Assembly (NCBI GenBank): GCA_048940445.1
Contig: JBHLON010000006.1
Coordinates: forward strand, 1 to 64,000
DNA from: Promethearchaeota archaeon
GTDB taxonomy: Archaea; Asgardarchaeota; Lokiarchaeia; Sigyniarchaeales; SOKP01
Direction: 5' to 3'
Length of the DNA: 64,000 nt
This document shows positions 34,892 through 44,082 of the stretch, one piece after another; within the stretch, counting starts at the first letter, position 1; every line of letters begins with the position of its first letter. Both the position numbers and the translations under genes were made by a program. The notes under the pieces are model-generated. The model had not been told where the DNA came from. It worked only from the letters and a program-made list of their open reading frames with translations, and ran no database searches.

Positions 34892-36016
34892 TTAATTCTG
34901 CGATAATAATTCAATTAATGCTCTTGGAATTTCTTTATAATCATTTACAGCATAAAATTTTCCCCTTCCCTTAATAGCAATTTCTTTACAAGCATCAATT
35001 CCTCTATCAGCATCGTTTTCAGCAGGCATCCCTATTACGTGTAATTTAGGATACTCTTTCGCTAGATTAAAAGGATTTTCTCCTCTGTTATAATTTCCAT
35101 CTGTTATTAGAATACCAAATTGATTTCTCGGTTCCTTTTTTAATTTATTTAATTCTTTTAATCCTTTTTCTAAACCAATATAGATGTTTGTAAAACCACT
35201 TGCTTCAGAGTCAAGGATATCATCTATAATTGTCGTAATTGGTTTTTTTTCATCAATTCTTTTTAATGTCAGTGCAGTTGAGTTGAATAAGATAATAGCA
35301 TAGTCTTCTTTCTCCATATTATAGGCAAGCACAGAAGCAGTTAAAGCAGCATTTAGGAGTAGCTTTCCATACATACTTCCACTTGTATCTAAAATCAATA
35401 CAATCTTGCGCTTCTGTTGCATTCTTTTAATACCATAGATGTCATCATATGTGATGATTTTTTGATGAATCTTTAAAGGATTATGCTGAATTGTTTCATC
35501 CAAATCAAATTCAGGTGAACCAATTTCGTAATGAGGGATAACTTTTCGATAATTCCCTCTTATGCCTTTACTTGTAATTTTAAGAGCTGTTTTCAATATA
35601 CTTTGGCGAGCTAAACGCCTAAATATTTTTTTATATTTCTCAGAGATTGGACGTCTTATAAAGAAGTAAACTTCTGCCATAGAAGTTGCTGAATCCTTTG
35701 CTTTTTCAGAGAAAAATTTAATTCCTTCATCACAGTCTAAAGCATCAGTCGCAGCATAAACATTTGATTTAAGCATGCCTATTATAGCCTCTAAATTTTT
35801 ATATTCTATCGCTAAGTAAGTTAATTCCTTAATTTGCTTATAATCCAATGAATTAGCTAAATGTTGATAATAATTGGGCTTTTTTCTCTTCTTTCTAATA
35901 ATTTCATATCTTAAGATCTCTTTGTCAGGAAGTTTTTCTGTTAATCTTACATGTAACCTTTTATTCTCAATCTCTTCAGAACTTTCTTTAGAGAAATCAT
36001 CGATTACTGAAAATCC
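34892..36016 (-). CDS. vWA domain protein (MoxR partner); frame opens inside the end of moxR, probably reached by -1 frameshift
   Basis: MIDAS DTSGSM, T (GFTNI), LITDG; frame open from 36019 with no ATG/GTG/TTG until 35848. Confidence 0.8.
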   Translation of the reverse strand, partial: GFSVIDDFSKESSEEIENKRLHVRLTEKLPDKEILRYEIIRKKRKKPNYYQHLANSLDYKQIKELTYLAIEYKNLEAIIGMLKSNVYAATDALDCDEGIKFFSEKAKDSATSMAEVYFFIRRPISEKYKKIFRRLARQSILKTALKITSKGIRGNYRKVIPHYEIGSPEFDLDETIQHNPLKIHQKIITYDDIYGIKRMQQKRKIVLILDTSGSMYGKLLLNAALTASVLAYNMEKEDYAIILFNSTALTLKRIDEKKPITTIIDDILDSEASGFTNIYIGLEKGLKELNKLKKEPRNQFGILITDGNYNRGENPFNLAKEYPKLHVIGMPAENDADRGIDACKEIAIKGRGKFYAVNDYKEIPRALIELLSQN

Positions 36017-36876
36017 AGCTTATTCAAAGTAGAAAGGACGATATCTGTAATCATTTCTGCTTTTGATTTAGTTACTCCATCTTCAATTTCAATCTTGTTG
36101 TATAAAGCCATAATACCTGCTTCTACCCAGTTTCTAGTACTTGTTTCATATCCTGAATTTGATACCAATCCTGCTAGATCGATTGCTCCTCTAATTGAAC
36201 TACCTCTTCGAATGAAGGTACTTTGTCTTGTCAGTTGAATAATATTTTGACAAATTCTGGCGATTTTATGTCCATTAGAGTCATTTAAGTTTGCTTCTTT
36301 TTCTATTATCAAAATTTCTTCTTCTGGATTTTGGTAATCTAATTTGATCCATATGAATCTATCTTTTAAAGCTTCACCTAAAACAGTTACTCCTACGTGA
36401 GCCCTGGGATTTTGCGTGGCAATTACAAAGAAGCTGTTGTCTGATTTAATTGTTCGTAATTTCGGAATTTCAAGTATTCCTTCATCTAAAGCCGTTAATA
36501 ATGAATTTTGAGTACTTTCTGGCATTCTATTAATTTCATTAACAAATAAACATCCACCTTTAAGCATGGCTGAAGCAAGTGGGCCATAGACATAGGATTC
36601 TTCTAGATAACCCTTCGCTATAACTAAAGGAGGATCCCAAAATCCAACTAAATTATGAGATAAAGTCTCCTCATTACAATCAATTCTATAAAAGTCTGAA
36701 TCAAAATATGATGCAACAGCACGAGCTATTGTTGTTTTTCCGACTCCAACCTCACCCTCAATCAAAATGTGCTTTCCAACAGATCTAGCAAGTATAATCT
36801 TATTTAGTTCAAAATCTCTTCCAATAATTTTGTATTTTTGTTGTATATTTTTTACAGTCTCAAATGCGTGAACCAT
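36004..36876 (-). CDS. MoxR-family AAA+ ATPase
   Basis: IIGR, GEVGVGKTT, LFVNEINR, IATQNP, EALKDRF. Confidence 0.9.
   Translation of the reverse strand: MVHAFETVKNIQQKYKIIGRDFELNKIILARSVGKHILIEGEVGVGKTTIARAVASYFDSDFYRIDCNEETLSHNLVGFWDPPLVIAKGYLEESYVYGPLASAMLKGGCLFVNEINRMPESTQNSLLTALDEGILEIPKLRTIKSDNSFFVIATQNPRAHVGVTVLGEALKDRFIWIKLDYQNPEEEILIIEKEANLNDSNGHKIARICQNIIQLTRQSTFIRRGSSIRGAIDLAGLVSNSGYETSTRNWVEAGIMALYNKIEIEDGVTKSKAEMITDIVLSTLNKLDFQ
36010..36016 (-). other. Candidate -1 programmed ribosomal frameshift heptamer G_GAU_UUU
   Basis: moxR ends CTG GAT TTT CAG TAA; the -1 frame GGA TTT TCA GTA runs without stop into the vWA ORF. Confidence 0.6.
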
Positions 36877-36996: not shown

Positions 36997-38253
36997 CTAT
37001 TTAGGAAAAAGTTTTACAATAACTTTTTCTCCCTTCTTTAATCCTTCTTGATTTGGAGGGATTTCAACAATTCCATCTGAATATATCAATGAAGTAATAA
37101 TAGCAGAACCTTTCAATTTAATTGGATAAGCTATATAATTATGATTTTTTTTTTCTACTCTTACCCTTAAATAATGTAAAATTCCTAAACTTGAAACAGG
37201 AATATCTTTATCGATAATTGCAAGAAGTTCATTTCTAGGATCTAAGACAGAACACCCTAACATTTTCCTAATGGCAAGTCCTGCAATTTTTAAAAAGGAA
37301 ACATATGCTGCTACAGGTGTTCCGGGAAGACAGAAAATTAGAGTATTATTAAAAAGACCCAATAATATAGGTGAACCAGGTCTCATTGCAATACCGTGTG
37401 TTATAATAGTACCTAATTCATTAATAATTTCAGGTAAATAATCTTTTGTCCCAACTGATGTGCCTCCAGTGAAAATTAAAACTTGAGAATCTTTTGTTGC
37501 TTCAATCAGCTTCTGTTTTATGATAAACTTATCATCTTTAAATGTTTCAGCTCTAATGACAAACCCTCCATATAAATTCACTAAAGATGATATCATTAAA
37601 TTATTTGAGTTGTAAATCTTACCAGGTTTCAAGGTATCACCAGGTTCTACTAACTCGTCTCCTGAAGAAAAAATACTTACTCTTGGTTTAATTTTTACTT
37701 CTATATGGTTTAATCCTAAAGAGGATAAAAGAGCTAAATGTTCAGCTTTTAAGTCTGTGCCCTTTCTTAGTATTTGGGTCCTCTTTTTAATATCTTCTCC
37801 TTTCTTTGAAACATTTTTTCCTGGAACTAAAGATACATAAAGCCTTATTAAATCATTTTCTATTTCTGTATCTTCTATCTTTATAACAGCATCAGCACCT
37901 TCTGGTAACGGCGCACCTGTAGAAATTTTACAACCTTCACTTTTTTCAATTTTAACTTCTGCAGATTCGCCAATTTCAACAGTTCCAACAAGTTTTATCA
38001 TTTTAGGAGTTTTTAGAGAGGCCCCAAATGAATCCTCTGCTTTAATCGCATAGCCATCCATAGCTGATCGATCAAAAGGGGGGATATCCAATTGACTGAC
38101 GATATCTTTTGCTAAGATTCGATTTAAACTATCCTTAATGTCAATATCTTCAACTGAAGTTTCTTGGATCTTTAAAAATAATTTATCTAAAGCATCATCT
38201 ATTGGTGTTAACTTAGAAAATCCTATTTTTCGAAGTTTTTCCACTTGTATCAC
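36997..38253 (-). CDS. moeA: Molybdopterin molybdo/tungstotransferase MoeA
   Basis: PPFDRSAMDGYA, SSGDEL, TGGTSVG, MRPGSP, LPGTP. Confidence 0.93.
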   Translation of the reverse strand: MIQVEKLRKIGFSKLTPIDDALDKLFLKIQETSVEDIDIKDSLNRILAKDIVSQLDIPPFDRSAMDGYAIKAEDSFGASLKTPKMIKLVGTVEIGESAEVKIEKSEGCKISTGAPLPEGADAVIKIEDTEIENDLIRLYVSLVPGKNVSKKGEDIKKRTQILRKGTDLKAEHLALLSSLGLNHIEVKIKPRVSIFSSGDELVEPGDTLKPGKIYNSNNLMISSLVNLYGGFVIRAETFKDDKFIIKQKLIEATKDSQVLIFTGGTSVGTKDYLPEIINELGTIITHGIAMRPGSPILLGLFNNTLIFCLPGTPVAAYVSFLKIAGLAIRKMLGCSVLDPRNELLAIIDKDIPVSSLGILHYLRVRVEKKNHNYIAYPIKLKGSAIITSLIYSDGIVEIPPNQEGLKKGEKVIVKLFPK

Positions 38254-38819
38254 TCTTGTTTATTTATTATATATAAAACATGTCCTAATTCAGGTATAAT
38301 AATATGCTGAAAAGCTAATTTTACCGCATTTGGAGAACCTGGTAATAAGAAAATGGCTTTATTCTTTTCTTCACTCCTTAAAATACCTGCTGTTGCTCTT
38401 GATAACATAGCAGAAGCACCAATTTCATTGTAAGAAAGTGATCTAAAAAGTTCTCCGAAGCCATCAAATTTCTTTTCTAATAATGGCTCCAATGTTTCAT
38501 AGGTTATATCTTTGATTGATAATCCTGTACCGCCACTAAATATGATTGCATCAATGGCTGGATCCTTTAACACCTGGGAAAGCGCTATTTCTAATTGTAT
38601 TTTTGAATCTGCTATAATAGTCGTGAATACTAATGAAATTGAATCGATATTTTCTAATAGCTGTCTTACTGTCGAAATTGTTTTATCTGAACTCTTTTTT
38701 CCAGATTCAATCTCATGAAATCTACTAGTGCTTACAATAATTAGAGCCATATTTATTTTTTTTGGAGCTTTCTTTTTGTGTTCTTCTGGAACTATGGTTT
38801 CTCTTACCATTTTTATCAT
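38250..38819 (-). CDS. moaB: Molybdopterin adenylyltransferase MoaB/MogA
   Basis: SGGTGLSIKDITYE, GFGELFR, AMLSRATAG, LPGSPNA. Confidence 0.9.
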   Translation of the reverse strand: MIKMVRETIVPEEHKKKAPKKINMALIIVSTSRFHEIESGKKSSDKTISTVRQLLENIDSISLVFTTIIADSKIQLEIALSQVLKDPAIDAIIFSGGTGLSIKDITYETLEPLLEKKFDGFGELFRSLSYNEIGASAMLSRATAGILRSEEKNKAIFLLPGSPNAVKLAFQHIIIPELGHVLYIINKQE

Positions 38820-38845
38820 TATTTTTTTATTTCAATATTTATAAT

Positions 38846-40072
38846 TTAGAAGAGATATACATTTCTTTTATCTCCCTTTTCTATTATTGATTCTAACTCA
38901 TTAATCTCTATATATCCATCTGCATAGAATATAGTACTTATCGCTTCAGATCCAGTTTTTATAGGAAATACCTTCATCTTACCATCAACCTCTTTGATTT
39001 GTACAGCTTTAAACTCGTGTCGGCCTATGGTGCTGTAAATTCTCTCGCCAATTTCCAATTCTTTCGAAAATACTTCTCTTAAAGGATATCCAGACATCTT
39101 CCTAAGGAAATTATCTATAAAAACATAATAACAACTTAATGCAGATGTGGGATATCCTGGTAATATAAAAATTATCTTTTTCTTTAATTTAGCAAATATG
39201 ATTGGTTTTCCTGGTTTGATTTTAACCCCATGTACTTGAATTTCAATATCATCATATTGTTCTAAGACTCTTGGTCCTAAATCCCCTTCTCCTTTTGATG
39301 TGCCACCTGATAATATTGTAATATCGCTTTTTTCTAAAGCTGTATCGACGGCTTTCTTTAAATCTTCAAACTTATCTCTTACTACACCTAAAAAATTCAC
39401 ATGAACACCTGTATTTTCAATAGCCTTTTTTAGAACTATAGAATTTACATCATAAATTTTACCAATCTCTAATTCTTTCGTATTTTGATTTACTAGTTCA
39501 TTACCAGTACTTAAAAGGCAAACTATTGGCTTCTCATGAACGGGAACATCTTTAATGCCACATGAAGCTAAAATCCCTAAAGTAGATAAATCAATCAACT
39601 TATCTTTTTTAACAATAATCTCGTTTTTTCTTATATCATGTCCTACTTCGATGATATGAGTTCCTGGAGTTATAGCTTTCGAAATTAAAACTTTATTATT
39701 TTTTTTTTCTGTGAACTCCACCATCACAACACCATTAGAATTCTCTGGGATTGCAGCTCCTGTTGCTACATAGGAACATTGATCCGTTTTTAGTGACTTT
39801 TGAGGAATTTCTCCTGCCTGAATTGTTTCAATTAATTCAAGCGCGATTAAATTATCTTCTTCTGCTTCAAATGTATCCTTAGCAATTACAGCATATCCAT
39901 CCATTCGTGACTTTTTAAAATGTGGGACATTTATTTTACTAACTATATCTCTAGAAAGAGTTCTGTTAAAGCAATCATTTAAAGAGACTAATTCTTCAGT
40001 AGTTGTTATCTTTTCTATTGAATTAAGTATTATTCTAAAATCTTCCACACTAATAGTTTTTAAAAATTTCAT
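38846..40072 (-). CDS. moeA: Second MoeA paralog
   Basis: SRMDGYAV, STGNEL, SGGTSKG, IKPGKP, LPGYP. Confidence 0.93.
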   Translation of the reverse strand: MKFLKTISVEDFRIILNSIEKITTTEELVSLNDCFNRTLSRDIVSKINVPHFKKSRMDGYAVIAKDTFEAEEDNLIALELIETIQAGEIPQKSLKTDQCSYVATGAAIPENSNGVVMVEFTEKKNNKVLISKAITPGTHIIEVGHDIRKNEIIVKKDKLIDLSTLGILASCGIKDVPVHEKPIVCLLSTGNELVNQNTKELEIGKIYDVNSIVLKKAIENTGVHVNFLGVVRDKFEDLKKAVDTALEKSDITILSGGTSKGEGDLGPRVLEQYDDIEIQVHGVKIKPGKPIIFAKLKKKIIFILPGYPTSALSCYYVFIDNFLRKMSGYPLREVFSKELEIGERIYSTIGRHEFKAVQIKEVDGKMKVFPIKTGSEAISTIFYADGYIEINELESIIEKGDKRNVYLF

Positions 40073-40115
40073 TTTTATGTATAAAGCTCACTCTTTATTA
40101 TTTTATAGATCATAA

Positions 40116-40559
40116 TTAATGTATCCATTTTGATGTTCCATTAGCAAAATCTTCTCTCTTCCAAACTGCTACTTCCTTTTTATACATTTCAACTGCTTGT
40201 TTAATAACATCAAATCCTTCTTTTCTGTGTGCAGATGCTACAACAACGTAAACTAAATCATCAGAGAGATCAAATTCACCTTTTAAATGGATAATTTTAA
40301 CATCTATGATTCCATTGACTCTTTTCAATTTTTCACAAATATCGTTAATACTTTTCCTTGCTAATTCATCATAAGCATCTACTTTCATACTAACTACTGG
40401 TTTACCTTCAAGCGAGCTATTTCTTACAATTCCTGTAAAAGTATGGATAGATCCAGCTTCTTTTATTTTATGATTTTTTTTAATGGAATTAATTATATTT
40501 TCTAATCCAATTTCTCCTTTATTATATATTCCAGATTGAACAGTCTCATCATTTTTCAT
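40116..40559 (-). CDS. moaE: Molybdopterin synthase catalytic subunit
   Basis: FTGIVR, VASAHR, WKRE. Confidence 0.92.
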   Translation of the reverse strand: MKNDETVQSGIYNKGEIGLENIINSIKKNHKIKEAGSIHTFTGIVRNSSLEGKPVVSMKVDAYDELARKSINDICEKLKRVNGIIDVKIIHLKGEFDLSDDLVYVVVASAHRKEGFDVIKQAVEMYKKEVAVWKREDFANGTSKWIH

Positions 40560-40565
40560 CAGTTA

Positions 40566-40844
40566 TTAACCTCCAGATACTGGTAATAAAAAAGCCACTT
40601 TATCTCCATTCTTTAACCTAATTAATAAAGGATTTTTTTCTTGAACGGTTTGATTATTGATTATTATTGAAATTAAATCATGTATCTTTTGAATTTTTTC
40701 ATCCCAAATTAAATTTTCTAAGTTATATTTTTCAAACAATAGATTAAGTAAGCCTTGTAGATTATCACCGGAAACATCAAATTCTTCTTTCTCTTTTCCT
40801 GTTATATCTTTAAATTCCGCAAAATATAAAACTTGAATTATCAT
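40566..40844 (-). CDS. moaD: MoaD/ThiS ubiquitin-like sulfur carrier
   Basis: YFA; C-terminal PVSGG. Confidence 0.92.
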   Translation of the reverse strand: MIIQVLYFAEFKDITGKEKEEFDVSGDNLQGLLNLLFEKYNLENLIWDEKIQKIHDLISIIINNQTVQEKNPLLIRLKNGDKVAFLLPVSGG

Positions 40845-40870
40845 AAATACAAAAAATCTTTAAATATTTG

Positions 40871-41791
40871 TTAATAGTAGGGCTCTCGTGAGTCTACAAC
40901 TTGTTTTACTATTTGCTCATATTTGGATAATGAGGAATTATTCTGTAGAGCCTCTTTAATATTTTTTCCAAGTTCAGATCGATATAAACATCCAAAGAGA
41001 TTTCCATCACATCCTACGCGTAATTTAGTACAACCCATACAAGATTCGTGACTTGGTGTGATTGTCTCAACTGTAACTGAATTAGGTAATATGAATACTT
41101 TGCGATTTTGCATAGAACCTCTTATTATTGTTTCTACTGCTCTTGATTCAAGTTCGTCTATAATAGGCTTAATATCTATGTGATACTTCTTGTAAAATTC
41201 ACCATTCTTAATTACTGAATTTGAAACTTCGTGTAATTCAATTAATTGAAGAATATATCCACTTTTTCCACAGAAATCAAGCATAGAGTCAAATTCATTA
41301 TCATTAAGTCCTTTCATTAAAACAAAATTTAATTTTATAGGATTTAATCCTACTTCCTTTGCTAGTTTTAAACCACTCAATACTTTATCTAAAGTATCTG
41401 AGCCATAAATCAGTTTATATACTTCTCGGTTGAGTGATGCTAATGACACATTTATCCGATTTAAACCCGCTTTGTATAACTCTTCTGCGTTTTCATATAA
41501 GAGCAATCCATTCGTGGTCATGGAAATATCTTTATATAGGTGTAGATCAGACACGTTCTTTATTATTTGCACAATTTCTTCCCGACATAAAGGCTCTCCT
41601 CCAGTAAACTTAATTCTTGTTACATTAAGTATCTCAGCTAATATTTTACATAAATTAGTGATTTCTTCGACTGTTAAATCTGATGTTTTGGGTATAAAAC
41701 CTTCTTGATCGCAATAAATGCAATTATAATTACATTTAGAAGTAATAGAAAATCTGATGTGCCTAATTTCTCTATTGCATTTATCTTTCAT
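40871..41791 (-). CDS. moaA: GTP 3',8-cyclase MoaA (archaeal type)
   Basis: CNYNCIYC, TGGEPL, TTNG, CMGCTKLR...CL; ends REPYY. Confidence 0.93.
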   Translation of the reverse strand: MKDKCNREIRHIRFSITSKCNYNCIYCDQEGFIPKTSDLTVEEITNLCKILAEILNVTRIKFTGGEPLCREEIVQIIKNVSDLHLYKDISMTTNGLLLYENAEELYKAGLNRINVSLASLNREVYKLIYGSDTLDKVLSGLKLAKEVGLNPIKLNFVLMKGLNDNEFDSMLDFCGKSGYILQLIELHEVSNSVIKNGEFYKKYHIDIKPIIDELESRAVETIIRGSMQNRKVFILPNSVTVETITPSHESCMGCTKLRVGCDGNLFGCLYRSELGKNIKEALQNNSSLSKYEQIVKQVVDSREPYY

Positions 41792-42227
41792 AATCTAAAT
41801 CCTGTTTTTTGATTTTTTCTTCAACCTTAATGTCATAAATTTTTGTGGTAGGATATTGCCCATTAGCATCTTTTTCATACTTTTTAACGACATCCCATAT
41901 ATTTAAAAGTGCAATACTAACACCAGTTAAGGCTTCTATCTCTACTCCCGTTTTGGCAATACTCTTAACTTTACATATTACATTAATATTCTCATCTTCG
42001 ATTTGAAAATCTAAGTCAACATTAGTTATAGAAATAGGATGGCAAAAAGGAATTAGTTCAGGAACTTTTTTTGCTGCACTAATAGCAGTAATTTTAGCTA
42101 CAGTTAATACATCTCCTTTTTCAACTTGCTTATTTTTAATCTTTTCAATTGTTTCTTTTTTTAATTTAATCTTGCCAGAAGCTGTGGCAATCCTTAGAAT
42201 TATGTCTTTCTTAGAGATATCAATCAT
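41781..42227 (-). CDS. moaC: Cyclic pyranopterin monophosphate synthase MoaC
   Basis: MIDISKK, KGDVL, LIPFCHP, TGVEIEAL, IWDVVK. Confidence 0.95.
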   Translation of the reverse strand: MIDISKKDIILRIATASGKIKLKKETIEKIKNKQVEKGDVLTVAKITAISAAKKVPELIPFCHPISITNVDLDFQIEDENINVICKVKSIAKTGVEIEALTGVSIALLNIWDVVKKYEKDANGQYPTTKIYDIKVEEKIKKQDLDYER

Positions 42228-42232
42228 TTTAC

Positions 42233-42256
42233 CGATATAACTTGGGATACATAACG
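42233..42256. promoter_or_regulatory. ModE-like operator upstream of moaC
   Basis: CGATAT-N12-ATAACG, 5 nt from the moaC start; same geometry as the box upstream of tupA. Confidence 0.65.
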
Positions 42257-42293
42257 ATTAAATAATTTAAATTGATATTTCTTAAAAATTTAT

Positions 42294-43385
42294 TTATAAT
42301 ATTTTAACGTCGGTTGCTTTAAAATTAATAAATACAACAGAATTAATTTCTAACTCTAAATTTCTTCTCGATAAATCTGTAACTGTAATCAAGAATTTTT
42401 CAGATTTGCATTTAACAATTAAATGACAAATGTTACCAAGTTCACGGATATTTTCAATAATACCTTTGAATGTATTTCTATAACTTGTATTTTCTGTAGG
42501 TTGTTTAACAATACCTATACTTTCTGGTCGAATGCATACCTTTACTTCACCTTCCTGTTGACTAGATGCTGCTATAATTAATTCATTGACTTTAACGAGT
42601 AATAATCCCGAAGACTCATCAAATTTTGCAATCCCATAAAAAATATTTTCATAACCCATAAAAAGAGCTGTAAATTCGTCTTTTGGTGAGGTGAATATCT
42701 CGTTTGGAGTTCCAATTTGAGTTACCTTTCCATTATTTAAGACTGCAATACGGTCTGCATACTTTATGGCTTCAAGTGGATCATGAGTGCTCATTATGGT
42801 AGTTTTTTCCTTATCCTGCTTTATTTTCATTATAAAATTTTCTAATAATTTAAGATTCATGGAATCTAGATTTGCCGAGACTTCATCTAATAAGTAGATT
42901 TCTGGATTAATAATAAAGTTCATCGCAATCGCTACTCGCTGCATTTCTCCACCAGATAAAGATCTTGCATTTTTTTTTTCCATACCTTTCAATCCTATAA
43001 ATTCAATAATTTCATCTACAGATTTTTTATACTCATTAGATTTAATCCCACGTATCTTAAGACCATAAGCAATATTATTAAAAACGGTTGTATTCCGTAC
43101 GACAGGCTTTTGTCTAACAAATGAGAATTTTCTTCGTATTCTGATTTTCTCCTTACGTGAAATATTTGTTAAATCTTTATTATTATAATAGATTTGTCCA
43201 TTTGTCGGTGATTCAAGTAAACCTATTAATCTTAATAAAGTTGTTTTACCACTTCCATTTGGGCCAATAATGACAAAAAATTCTGATTTATTAACTGAGA
43301 AGTTGATATTAGAAAGAACTTTAATTGAAGATTCTTCTTTCTTATGAAACTCTTTACTAAGATTACTAATTTCAAGTAATTTCAT
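42294..43385 (-). CDS. tupC: Tungstate ABC transporter ATPase with TOBE domains
   Basis: GPNGSGKT, LSGGEMQR, LLDE; C-terminal TOBE (FKATDV); operon context. Confidence 0.85.
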   Translation of the reverse strand: MKLLEISNLSKEFHKKEESSIKVLSNINFSVNKSEFFVIIGPNGSGKTTLLRLIGLLESPTNGQIYYNNKDLTNISRKEKIRIRRKFSFVRQKPVVRNTTVFNNIAYGLKIRGIKSNEYKKSVDEIIEFIGLKGMEKKNARSLSGGEMQRVAIAMNFIINPEIYLLDEVSANLDSMNLKLLENFIMKIKQDKEKTTIMSTHDPLEAIKYADRIAVLNNGKVTQIGTPNEIFTSPKDEFTALFMGYENIFYGIAKFDESSGLLLVKVNELIIAASSQQEGEVKVCIRPESIGIVKQPTENTSYRNTFKGIIENIRELGNICHLIVKCKSEKFLITVTDLSRRNLELEINSVVFINFKATDVKIL

Positions 43386-43386
43386 G

Positions 43387-44082
43387 TTAATCAGCCTTGG
43401 ATTGTACACGAGTCATTCCATAATTTACAATAAAAGCTATTAAAATAAGGATAATACCCAAAGCAATTGCCATTCCAAATTCACCCATACGAGTTTGAAG
43501 TACAATGGCAGTTGTAAATGTTCTTGTTTCCCACCGAATATTCCCTCCTACTATTATAACTGCACCTACTTCTGAGATATTTTGACCAAAAGCAACAAGA
43601 ATTCCTGCAATTATGGATCTCTTTGAATGTTTTATCAATTCCCACCATAATTGGCGTTCATTTGCCCCAAGAGAGATTACTGTTTCCTTTAAAGCTGGAT
43701 CGACGGTTTCAATCGCAGCTTTTGTTGTACCCATAACTATTGGAAGTGCTAAAAGAAATTGAACTAAAATCATAGCGGTTGTAGAATATAATAATCCTAA
43801 GGCACCAAAGGGTCCCGTTCGAGAAAGTAGTAAATAAACTACTAGTCCCATGACTACAGGAGGGAATCCCATAAATGTATTAATCAGATTGGCTAAAGTC
43901 TTTTTTCCCTTAAATCTTCTTAAGCCAATAAATGAACCAATTGGTAAGGCAACTAAAGTAGCAAGAAAAGTTGATGTTAAAGATACTCGAAAAGATACAC
44001 CAATAATACCCCAAACTTCGGGATCAAATGTAAATATTAAACGTAACGCATCTAATATTCCCTCAATAATTTCATTTGCCAT
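43387..44082 (-). CDS. tupB: Tungstate ABC transporter permease
   Basis: MGFPPVVMGL, SRTGPFG, SEVGA, VGGNI, TRTFTTAI. Confidence 0.92.
   Translation of the reverse strand: MANEIIEGILDALRLIFTFDPEVWGIIGVSFRVSLTSTFLATLVALPIGSFIGLRRFKGKKTLANLINTFMGFPPVVMGLVVYLLLSRTGPFGALGLLYSTTAMILVQFLLALPIVMGTTKAAIETVDPALKETVISLGANERQLWWELIKHSKRSIIAGILVAFGQNISEVGAVIIVGGNIRWETRTFTTAIVLQTRMGEFGMAIALGIILILIAFIVNYGMTRVQSKAD

What the first reader, a model, noticed from the sequence alone, without database searches (positions are those of the whole stretch)
34892..36876. MoxR AAA+ ATPase and vWA partner probably joined by a -1 programmed frameshift at G_GAU_UUU
Seen: moxR ends AAT AAG CTG GAT TTT CAG TAA. The vWA frame is the -1 frame. 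It opens right after a TAA two codons before the heptamer and runs GGA TTT TCA GTA ATC... for 56 codons (GFSVIDDFSKESSEEIENKRLHVRLTEKLPDKEILRYEIIRKKRKKPNYYQHLANS) with no ATG/GTG/TTG before the TTG picked by the ORF track. The roughly 5-codon overlap of the two frames contains G GAT TTT in the correct phase. Known: G_GAU_UUU is a functional -1 slippery heptamer in some plant RNA viruses, and frameshifted chlD genes make a short AAA subunit and a long AAA-vWA subunit from one locus. Inference: this locus makes a 290-aa ATPase and an approximately 661-aa AAA-vWA fusion at a set ratio, extending that strategy to an Asgard MoxR system. I see no strong downstream stimulatory hairpin.
Basis: partly seen in the sequence, partly recalled or inferred. 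Interest (0 to 1): 0.8.

Follow-up and report, generated by a model that had tools for sequence, protein, structure and literature searches.

The report
Asgard ATPase-vWA frameshift with kink-turn
What looks like two neighbouring genes in this Asgard archaeon is best read as one recoded gene: at a U-run conserved across the phylum some ribosomes most likely slip back one base and make an ATPase-vWA fusion beside the ATPase alone, and the signal behind the slip site fits a kink-turn, an RNA bend that the protein L7Ae binds.

Summary
Observation confirmed (minus strand). moxR ends ...GAU UUU CAG UAA; the vWA frame is -1, has no ATG/GTG/TTG for 56 codons, and a slip gives 661 aa. It is not an assembly error: 117 of 127 Asgard orthologous loci (20 of 23 families) have the same -1 layout, and 116 of the 117 carry U_UUY just before the stop. 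The constant part is U_UUU, not G_GAU. The ten exceptions keep UUU_UUU_CGN, either in +1 or inside in-frame fusions. Best reading: -1 ribosomal frameshifting gives a short MoxR ATPase and a long ATPase-vWA subunit (0.88); L7Ae involvement about 0.4. It works like frameshifted chlD but is not ChlD. No RNA or protein data. This scan noted the frameshift, a kink-turn and the +1 site before on other Asgard DNA; I found no paper on them.

The parts
36004..36876 (-). MoxR-type AAA+ ATPase ORF (290 aa), the 0-frame product and N-terminal half of the fusion
   Evidence: (AAA_5 E 1e-21, AAA_3 E 5e-20)
36733..36756 (-). Walker A (GEVGVGKT)
   Evidence: translation; GxVGVGKT across the alignment
36535..36546 (-). 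Walker B with Asn in place of the usual Asp (FVNE), a family trait
   Evidence: hhNE in all frameshifted and nearly all fused rows
36020..36022 (-). -1 frame stop (TAA) that bounds the shift window on the 5' side
36010..36016 (-). slippery heptamer G_GAU_UUU; the invariant part is U_UUU at 36013..36010
36004..36009 (-). CAG UAA: one dispensable sense codon and the 0-frame stop
   Evidence: 0 or 1 codon between UUU and the stop in 98 of 104 loci
35990..36003 (-). 5' (bulged) strand of the kink-turn-like stimulator: UC (C-stem), GAU bulge 36001..35999, GA 35998..35997, then UUUCUCU
35965..35975 (-). 3' (non-bulged) strand of the stimulator: AGAGAUU, GA at 35968..35967, then GA closing the C-stem
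   Evidence: (GAG in 63/63 at codon 304)
34892..36010 (-). -1 frame: acidic linker, helical domain and vWA domain (372 aa after the slip), with no conserved start of its own
35375..35389 (-). MIDAS DxSxS (DTSGS) of the vWA domain
   Evidence: the first D, both S-flanking positions and the later T and D are invariant or nearly so

Best explanation
One recoded gene makes two subunits. Most ribosomes read moxR to UAA and release the 290-aa ATPase. A fraction, slowed at GAU UUU by the adjacent stop and by a hairpin starting 7 nt downstream, slips one base back (tRNA-Phe re-pairs UUU to UUU) and reads on to make the 661-aa ATPase-linker-vWA protein. The two products most likely co-assemble into an AAA+ ring carrying few vWA domains, as in MoxR/vWA chaperones. 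The hairpin fits a kink-turn and is weak by itself, so L7Ae (or L30e) may be needed to stabilise it. Shown here: the frame layout, conservation of U_UUU, coding selection in the -1 frame, the kink-turn consensus, and fused relatives. Inferred: slippage by the ribosome (0.88), kink-turn folding (0.75), protein dependence (0.4), mixed ring (0.7). The client is unknown.
For: Frame: 105 of 107 scorable Asgard loci are -1, plus 4 and 8, in 20 GTDB families. Slip motif: U_UUY in 116 of 117 -1 loci; the exception has C_CCU directly before the stop. Bracketing: in 2 loci the -1 frame opens only at UUU, and in 13 the 0-frame stop follows UUU directly. P-site match: the first two heptamer bases are equal in 49/63 and 33/41 loci against 32% and 21% at other U_UUU sites of the same genes; canonical A_AAU, G_GGU and C_CCU variants occur. 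Synonymous constraint peaks at codons 287-304 (excess 0.33, sd 0.05, best window elsewhere 0.07). The -1 codons upstream of the TTG vary like coding sequence (0.15/0.09/0.38 by codon position), and no ATG/GTG/TTG column is conserved before residue 400. Residues 32-55 of that frame form confident helices. Kink-turn: 63/63 against 22.5+-4.3 in synonymous recodings and only at bulge size 3; 21/41 against 6.6+-2.1 in distant loci; 7/9 held-out loci against 1.7+-1.1; changes on both sides in 6 of 12 pairs. About 100 in-frame AAA-vWA fusions exist. Precedent: G_GAU_UUU with a stop 3 nt later works in pea enation mosaic virus (PMC5009743).
Against: G_GAU re-pairs poorly in the P site, and 21 of 104 loci have no first-position match. 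In this family an AUC overlaps the stop (UAAUC) in 51 of 63 loci. The window's C-stem is only 2 bp and its core pairs never vary, so they give no covariation. GA-rich Glu/Asp codons favour chance kink-turn matches (null 36% in the family). Several lineages (f10, f13, f16, f17, f33) show no kink-turn. Many loci are kin, so counts overstate independence. Many fused relatives have no slip site and no adjacent short ATPase gene, so two products are not required everywhere.
Confidence: 0.88

Rival explanations
1. Two separate proteins: after stopping at UAA the ribosome re-initiates on the overlapping near-cognate AUC (UAAUC, like a UAAUG stop-start) or on AUA.
For: ATC starts at the last base of the stop in 51 of 63 family loci, and every family locus has some near-cognate codon within 8 codons. 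An earlier unchecked note suggests ATH starts in these genomes.
Against: In 41 distant loci that codon takes 19 different forms, with ATC once. The family ATC is explained by the stop plus the UC of the C-stem. The rival does not explain U_UUY in 116/117 loci, the P-site bias, or the switch to +1 and fused forms at the same U-run. The genome's own paralogue, which is a true two-gene pair, has a GGAGG and an ATG.
Confidence: 0.06
2. Transcriptional slippage: RNA polymerase adds a U in the T-run, so part of the mRNA is in frame.
For: One U-run would explain the -1, +1 and fused layouts together. Runs of 6-8 T occur in families f18, f24 and f32, and runs of about 9 A in bacterial relatives.
Against: The window and most loci have only 4 T. 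Known slippage runs are A over 7 and T over 8 (PMC3711429). The phase of the run, the adjacent stop and a 3' structure at ribosome spacing point to translation.
Confidence: 0.04
3. Assembly indel or a recently broken gene.
For: Raw reads could not be checked.
Against: The same layout is in 117 assemblies from 20 families, including single-contig genomes (G135, G138, G143, G279, G188, G067). Both halves are under purifying selection, and Walker A and MIDAS are intact.
Confidence: 0.01
4. The conserved RNA is a box C/D guide RNA that overlaps the junction and has nothing to do with decoding.
For: There is a box-C-like GAUGA, and two chance-level Rfam C/D matches cover the stretch (E 2.7 and 4.7, far below their cut-offs).
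Against: No CUGA box is conserved (at most 15 of 63 at any position). The motif keeps its distance from the slip site while its polarity flips between lineages.
Confidence: 0.01

Closest known systems
Frameshifted chlD (fs-chlD, Mg/Co-chelatase medium subunit) genes (PMC3711429; PMC9227772; PMC5009743)
   Same: One locus gives a short AAA+ subunit and a long AAA+-linker-vWA subunit; usually a -1 shift at the domain boundary with a 3' structure; in-frame fusions among relatives; some fs-chlD genomes also lack the large subunit.
   Different: The protein is MoxR/AAA_5 type and scores about 21-24 bits on ChlD/chelatase models with cut-offs of 500-780. No CobN/ChlH in the genome. The slip site is U_UUU beside a stop, not A_AAA_AAR or poly-A. 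The 3' element fits a kink-turn.
MoxR AAA+/vWA chaperone pairs NorQ/NorD, CbbQ/CbbO, RavA/ViaA, CobS/CobT (PMC9976466; 10.64898/2026.10.09.757910)
   Same: MoxR ATPase followed by a C-terminal vWA with an intact MIDAS; the best fold match of the -1 product is the NorD vWA domain. NorQD is one NorD per hexamer, a ratio a frameshift could set.
   Different: Those partners are separate genes with their own starts. Here the vWA part has no start and would be tethered to an ATPase subunit. Walker B is hhNE. No client is conserved nearby.
Kink-turns in archaeal l7ae 5' leaders and mRNAs (PMC6298567; PMC5539422)
   Same: GAU bulge plus tandem GA; C:G before the bulge; few Watson-Crick pairs in the C-helix; low intrinsic stability; both polarities occur among species.
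   Different: This one lies in coding sequence 9-13 nt behind a slip site, not over a ribosome binding site; the proposed output is frame change, not repression. Binding is untested.
Protein-stimulated frameshifting in cardioviruses (2A) and PRRSV (nsp1beta/PCBP) (PMC7618472)
   Same: A U-rich slip site with a protein-binding element 10-14 nt downstream that is weak without its protein.
   Different: Those are viral signals with viral transactivators. This would be a cellular archaeal gene using a housekeeping RNA-binding protein; dependence on protein is not shown.
Umbravirus (pea enation mosaic virus) G_GAU_UUU site; influenza PA-X UCC_UUU_CGU +1 site (PMC5009743)
   Same: Same heptamer with a stop 3 nt later. 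The +1 and fused Asgard orthologues keep UUU_CGN.
   Different: Viral and eukaryotic ribosomes; unrelated genes and stimulators.

Membership tests
fs-chlD (chelatase medium subunit) | ChlI/ChlD-type AAA+ sequence above family cut-off | tested here: not met
   TIGR02031 21.4 bits (cut-off 499.55), TIGR02442 23.6 (779.45), PF01078 20.1 (20.3); AAA_5/AAA_3 score 72-78
fs-chlD (chelatase medium subunit) | AAA+ and vWA halves in different frames with fused homologues | tested here: met
fs-chlD (chelatase medium subunit) | A-rich slip site (A_AAA_AAR or poly-A) | tested here: not met
   U_UUY in 116/117 orthologues; A-runs only in paralogues and bacterial relatives
fs-chlD (chelatase medium subunit) | large subunit CobN/ChlH in the genome (usual, not universal) | tested here: not met
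   no PF02514 match in a 93% complete genome
MoxR AAA+/vWA pair | MoxR-type ATPase with Walker A and B | tested here: met
   Walker B has Asn for Asp
MoxR AAA+/vWA pair | adjacent vWA domain with MIDAS | tested here: met
MoxR AAA+/vWA pair | hexamer formation and client remodelling | not testable with these tools
   needs biochemistry
-1 programmed ribosomal frameshift | slippery site in the correct phase inside the overlap, conserved | tested here: met
   the XXX triplet is often imperfect
-1 programmed ribosomal frameshift | 3' stimulator about 5-9 nt downstream | tested here: met
   first paired base at +7; folding stronger than synonymous recodings in 63/63 and 33/41 loci
-1 programmed ribosomal frameshift | transframe product made by the ribosome | not testable with these tools
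   no reads or proteomes
standard kink-turn | 3-nt bulge followed by tandem G:A and A:G | tested here: met
   GAU bulge 62/63, both GA invariant; enrichment only at bulge size 3
standard kink-turn | flanking C and NC helices | tested here: inconclusive
   NC helix 5-7 bp with two-sided changes; C helix only 2 invariant pairs in this family, but 4-5 varied pairs in distant loci
standard kink-turn | kinked fold and L7Ae binding | not testable with these tools
   two L7Ae-family genes are present in the genome; binding untested

The most novel reading that the evidence does not exclude
A phylum-wide, probably ancestral Asgard -1 frameshift whose stimulator is a kink-turn bound by L7Ae. This would be a protein-stimulated frameshift in a cellular gene, tying the ratio of free ATPase to ATPase-vWA to the level of a core ribosome and guide-RNA protein. 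Lineages without the kink-turn keep two products by other signals (plain hairpin, +1 at UUU_CGN, or truncation of an in-frame fusion).
Probability: 0.38. Interest if true: 0.9.

Novelty: new variant of a known kind. Interest (0 to 1): 0.76.

Why it matters
Only one archaeal cellular -1 frameshift (fucA1) has been shown experimentally, with chelatase genes as a further candidate (PMC8211752). This locus was matched in 253 of 400 Asgard genomes and keeps the shifted layout in most families, so it offers a deeply conserved test case for how archaeal ribosomes near the root of eukaryotes change frame. It also means hundreds of Asgard vWA genes are annotated with false starts. It extends the chlD trick to a non-chelatase MoxR chaperone. 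If the kink-turn needs L7Ae, it is a cellular counterpart of protein-stimulated frameshifting, which the review I read describes for viruses, and it can be tested with a 60-nt cassette and a standard protein.

Tried and rejected
Antonov 2020 (MBE) is not held, so I cannot exclude that some of these loci fell into its tblastn set. Paper searches for MoxR plus programmed frameshift, and frameshift plus Asgard plus AAA plus vWA, gave nothing; kink-turn plus L7Ae plus frameshifting gave only unrelated papers. My first kink-turn pattern was too loose and confused polarities; it was replaced by a stricter rule with a synonymous null and a held-out test. A second, upper kink-turn in the family was not supported (9 against 27.7 expected). 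Rfam gave only chance-level matches. The 0-frame ATG after the stop opens a short, unconserved peptide and is a by-product of the GAU GAU motif. The midasin hit is a summed score over several AAA domains and is not taken as a specific link. The bacterial promoter scan was at chance level. No complex prediction was run: halves of a split gene tend to pass regardless.

Full report
Observation. The two ORFs are on the minus strand: a 290-aa ATPase at 36876..36004 and a vWA frame ending at 34892. The ATPase ends CTG GAT TTT CAG TAA. The vWA frame is -1, opens after a TAA at 36022..36020, overlaps the ATPase by 16 nt, and has no ATG/GTG/TTG for 56 codons. A slip on U_UUU yields 661 aa. In the whole genome this is the only long ORF that ends in T_TTT(NNN)stop, continues in a long -1 frame and has no nearby start. 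The closest relatives are labelled Promethearchaeota.

Proteins. The first ORF is a MoxR-type AAA+ (AAA_5, AAA_3), far below all chelatase cut-offs. The second has a vWA domain with an intact MIDAS. An AlphaFold model shows a disordered linker (residues 1-23), then confident helices from residue 32, upstream of the TTG at residue 58, then the vWA fold, whose best match is NorD. No CobN/ChlH was found in this 93% complete genome.

Conservation of the layout. The ATPase was matched in 253 of 400 genomes of the phylum. After removing duplicates, 105 of 107 scorable loci have the vWA in -1, one in +1 and one fused. Further loci add 12 in -1, four in +1 and four fused. The total is 117 -1, 5 +1 and 5 fused, with -1 in 20 of 23 families; single-contig genomes are among them. 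An assembly error is excluded for practical purposes.

The slip site. U_UUY stands in frame just before the stop in 116 of the 117 -1 loci; the exception has C_CCU before the stop. The 5' triplet varies: G_GAU 59, A_GAU 17, A_AAU 12, and G_GGU, C_CCU, C_CAU and others. Natural variants bracket the site: in two loci a -1 stop lies directly before UUU, and in 13 the 0-frame stop lies directly after it. So re-pairing of tRNA-Phe is the essential step. The first two heptamer bases are nevertheless equal more often than at other U_UUU sites in the same genes (49/63 against 32%; 33/41 against 21%), which suggests some tandem slippage. The same heptamer with a stop 3 nt later works in pea enation mosaic virus, where the stop matters (PMC5009743).

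No independent start. In the family alignment the first ATG/GTG/TTG lies 5 to 107 codons after the stop, and no start column is conserved before residue 400 of the fusion, while the codons upstream of the TTG vary like coding sequence. An AUC overlaps the stop in 51 of 63 family loci but in 1 of 41 distant ones, so re-initiation remains a minor rival.

The 3' signal. Synonymous positions are frozen at codons 287-295 and 302-304 (excess 0.33, sd 0.05). Folding energy peaks just after the slip site and beats synonymous recodings in 63/63 family and 33/41 distant loci. The invariant letters are UC-RAU-GA on the 5' side and GA-GA on the 3' side. This is the kink-turn consensus: a 3-nt bulge followed by tandem G:A pairs (PMC6298567). 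All 63 family loci fit it, against 22.5+-4.3 in recodings, and only with a bulge of 3. Distant Asgards show the motif with the strands swapped and longer, covarying stems (21/41 strict against 6.6+-2.1; 29/41 relaxed). With the rule fixed beforehand, 7 of 9 held-out loci had it, all at +9 (null 1.7+-1.1). Flipped polarity, a GAU bulge, C:G before the bulge and weak C-helices are also features of the l7ae leader kink-turns that need L7Ae to fold, and L7Ae binds kink-turns in coding regions (PMC5539422). The genome has two L7Ae-family genes. Caveats: the window's C-stem is 2 bp and invariant, Glu/Asp codons raise the background, kin are not independent, and families f10, f13, f16, f17 and f33 show a plain hairpin or no clear structure.

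Exceptions. All five +1 loci (f18, f24, f32) and all eight distinct in-frame fusions of the f24 clade that I read keep UUU UUU CGN at the same place. UUU_CGN is the +1 site of influenza PA-X. In the fusions both other frames hit a stop within a few codons, so a slip would give the short ATPase. On the tree these rows nest inside the Asgard clade with the -1 rows (support 99). Paralogues in G067 and three bacterial relatives are -1 with A-runs. About 100 fusions exist in other archaea and bacteria; most lack Phe at the junction, and none of seven read had an adjacent short paralogue. So recoding is tied mainly to the Asgard clade and has been solved in several ways.

Mechanism and function. Most likely ribosomes pause at GAU UUU between a stop and a protein-stabilised or ion-stabilised kinked hairpin, and a fraction shifts -1. 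The two products would form a ring with few vWA domains; NorQD has one NorD per hexamer (PMC9976466). The client is unknown. The window's upstream neighbours are molybdenum/tungsten-cofactor genes, shared by about ten family loci, but other loci have ECF transporters, CDC48 or corrinoid methyltransferase genes.

Novelty. It works like frameshifted chlD (PMC3711429, PMC9227772) but fails membership on sequence, slip site and large subunit. I found no paper on it, though one key paper was not available. This scan has noted the frameshift, a kink-turn in one Heimdall family and the +1 site on other DNA; my analyses were done before reading those notes. Verdict: new variant of a known kind, interest 0.76.

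Noticed in passing
window 36535-36546 (-): Walker B reads hhNE instead of hhDE in essentially the whole family, frameshifted and fused alike; the effect on ATP hydrolysis is unknown.
   Followed up: partly
window 36997-44082 (-): Molybdenum/tungsten-cofactor cluster (two moeA-like, mogA/moaB-like, moaE, moaD, moaA, moaC-like, ABC transporter; named from the translations, not searched) directly upstream on the same strand; linked in about ten family loci only.
   Followed up: partly
G000 C51 about 9625-6160 (-): A paralogous AAA+ gene and a long vWA gene lie in the same frame separated by one TAG; GGAGG plus ATG follows, so it looks like an ordinary two-gene pair rather than read-through.
   Followed up: partly
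L083, L141, L145, L161, L164; L084, L138-L140, L142, L158-L160: Invariant UUU UUU CGN at the junction in +1 and in-frame orthologues (families f18, f24, f32): candidate +1 or truncating shift.
   Followed up: partly
L063, L067 (family f6): The slip motif is replaced by C_CCU directly before the stop, still with the vWA in -1 (shown for L063).
   Followed up: no
L152, L155 (G067); L010-L012 (bacteria); L134: Paralogues and bacterial relatives are -1 with A-runs (A_AAA_AAG, about 9 A), one with a strong hairpin; an in-frame fusion (L134) keeps a 10-A run at the junction.
   Followed up: partly
L129, L157-L160: In the f24 (Njordarchaeales-labelled) clade the fused gene directly follows a CDC48 gene and lies near EAP30 and RNA polymerase subunit L genes.
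   Followed up: no
L127, L135, L130: Fused homologues outside Asgard lie among trimethylamine methyltransferase and corrinoid genes, or next to a molybdate/tungstate-type ABC transporter, which may hint at metal-cofactor clients.
   Followed up: no
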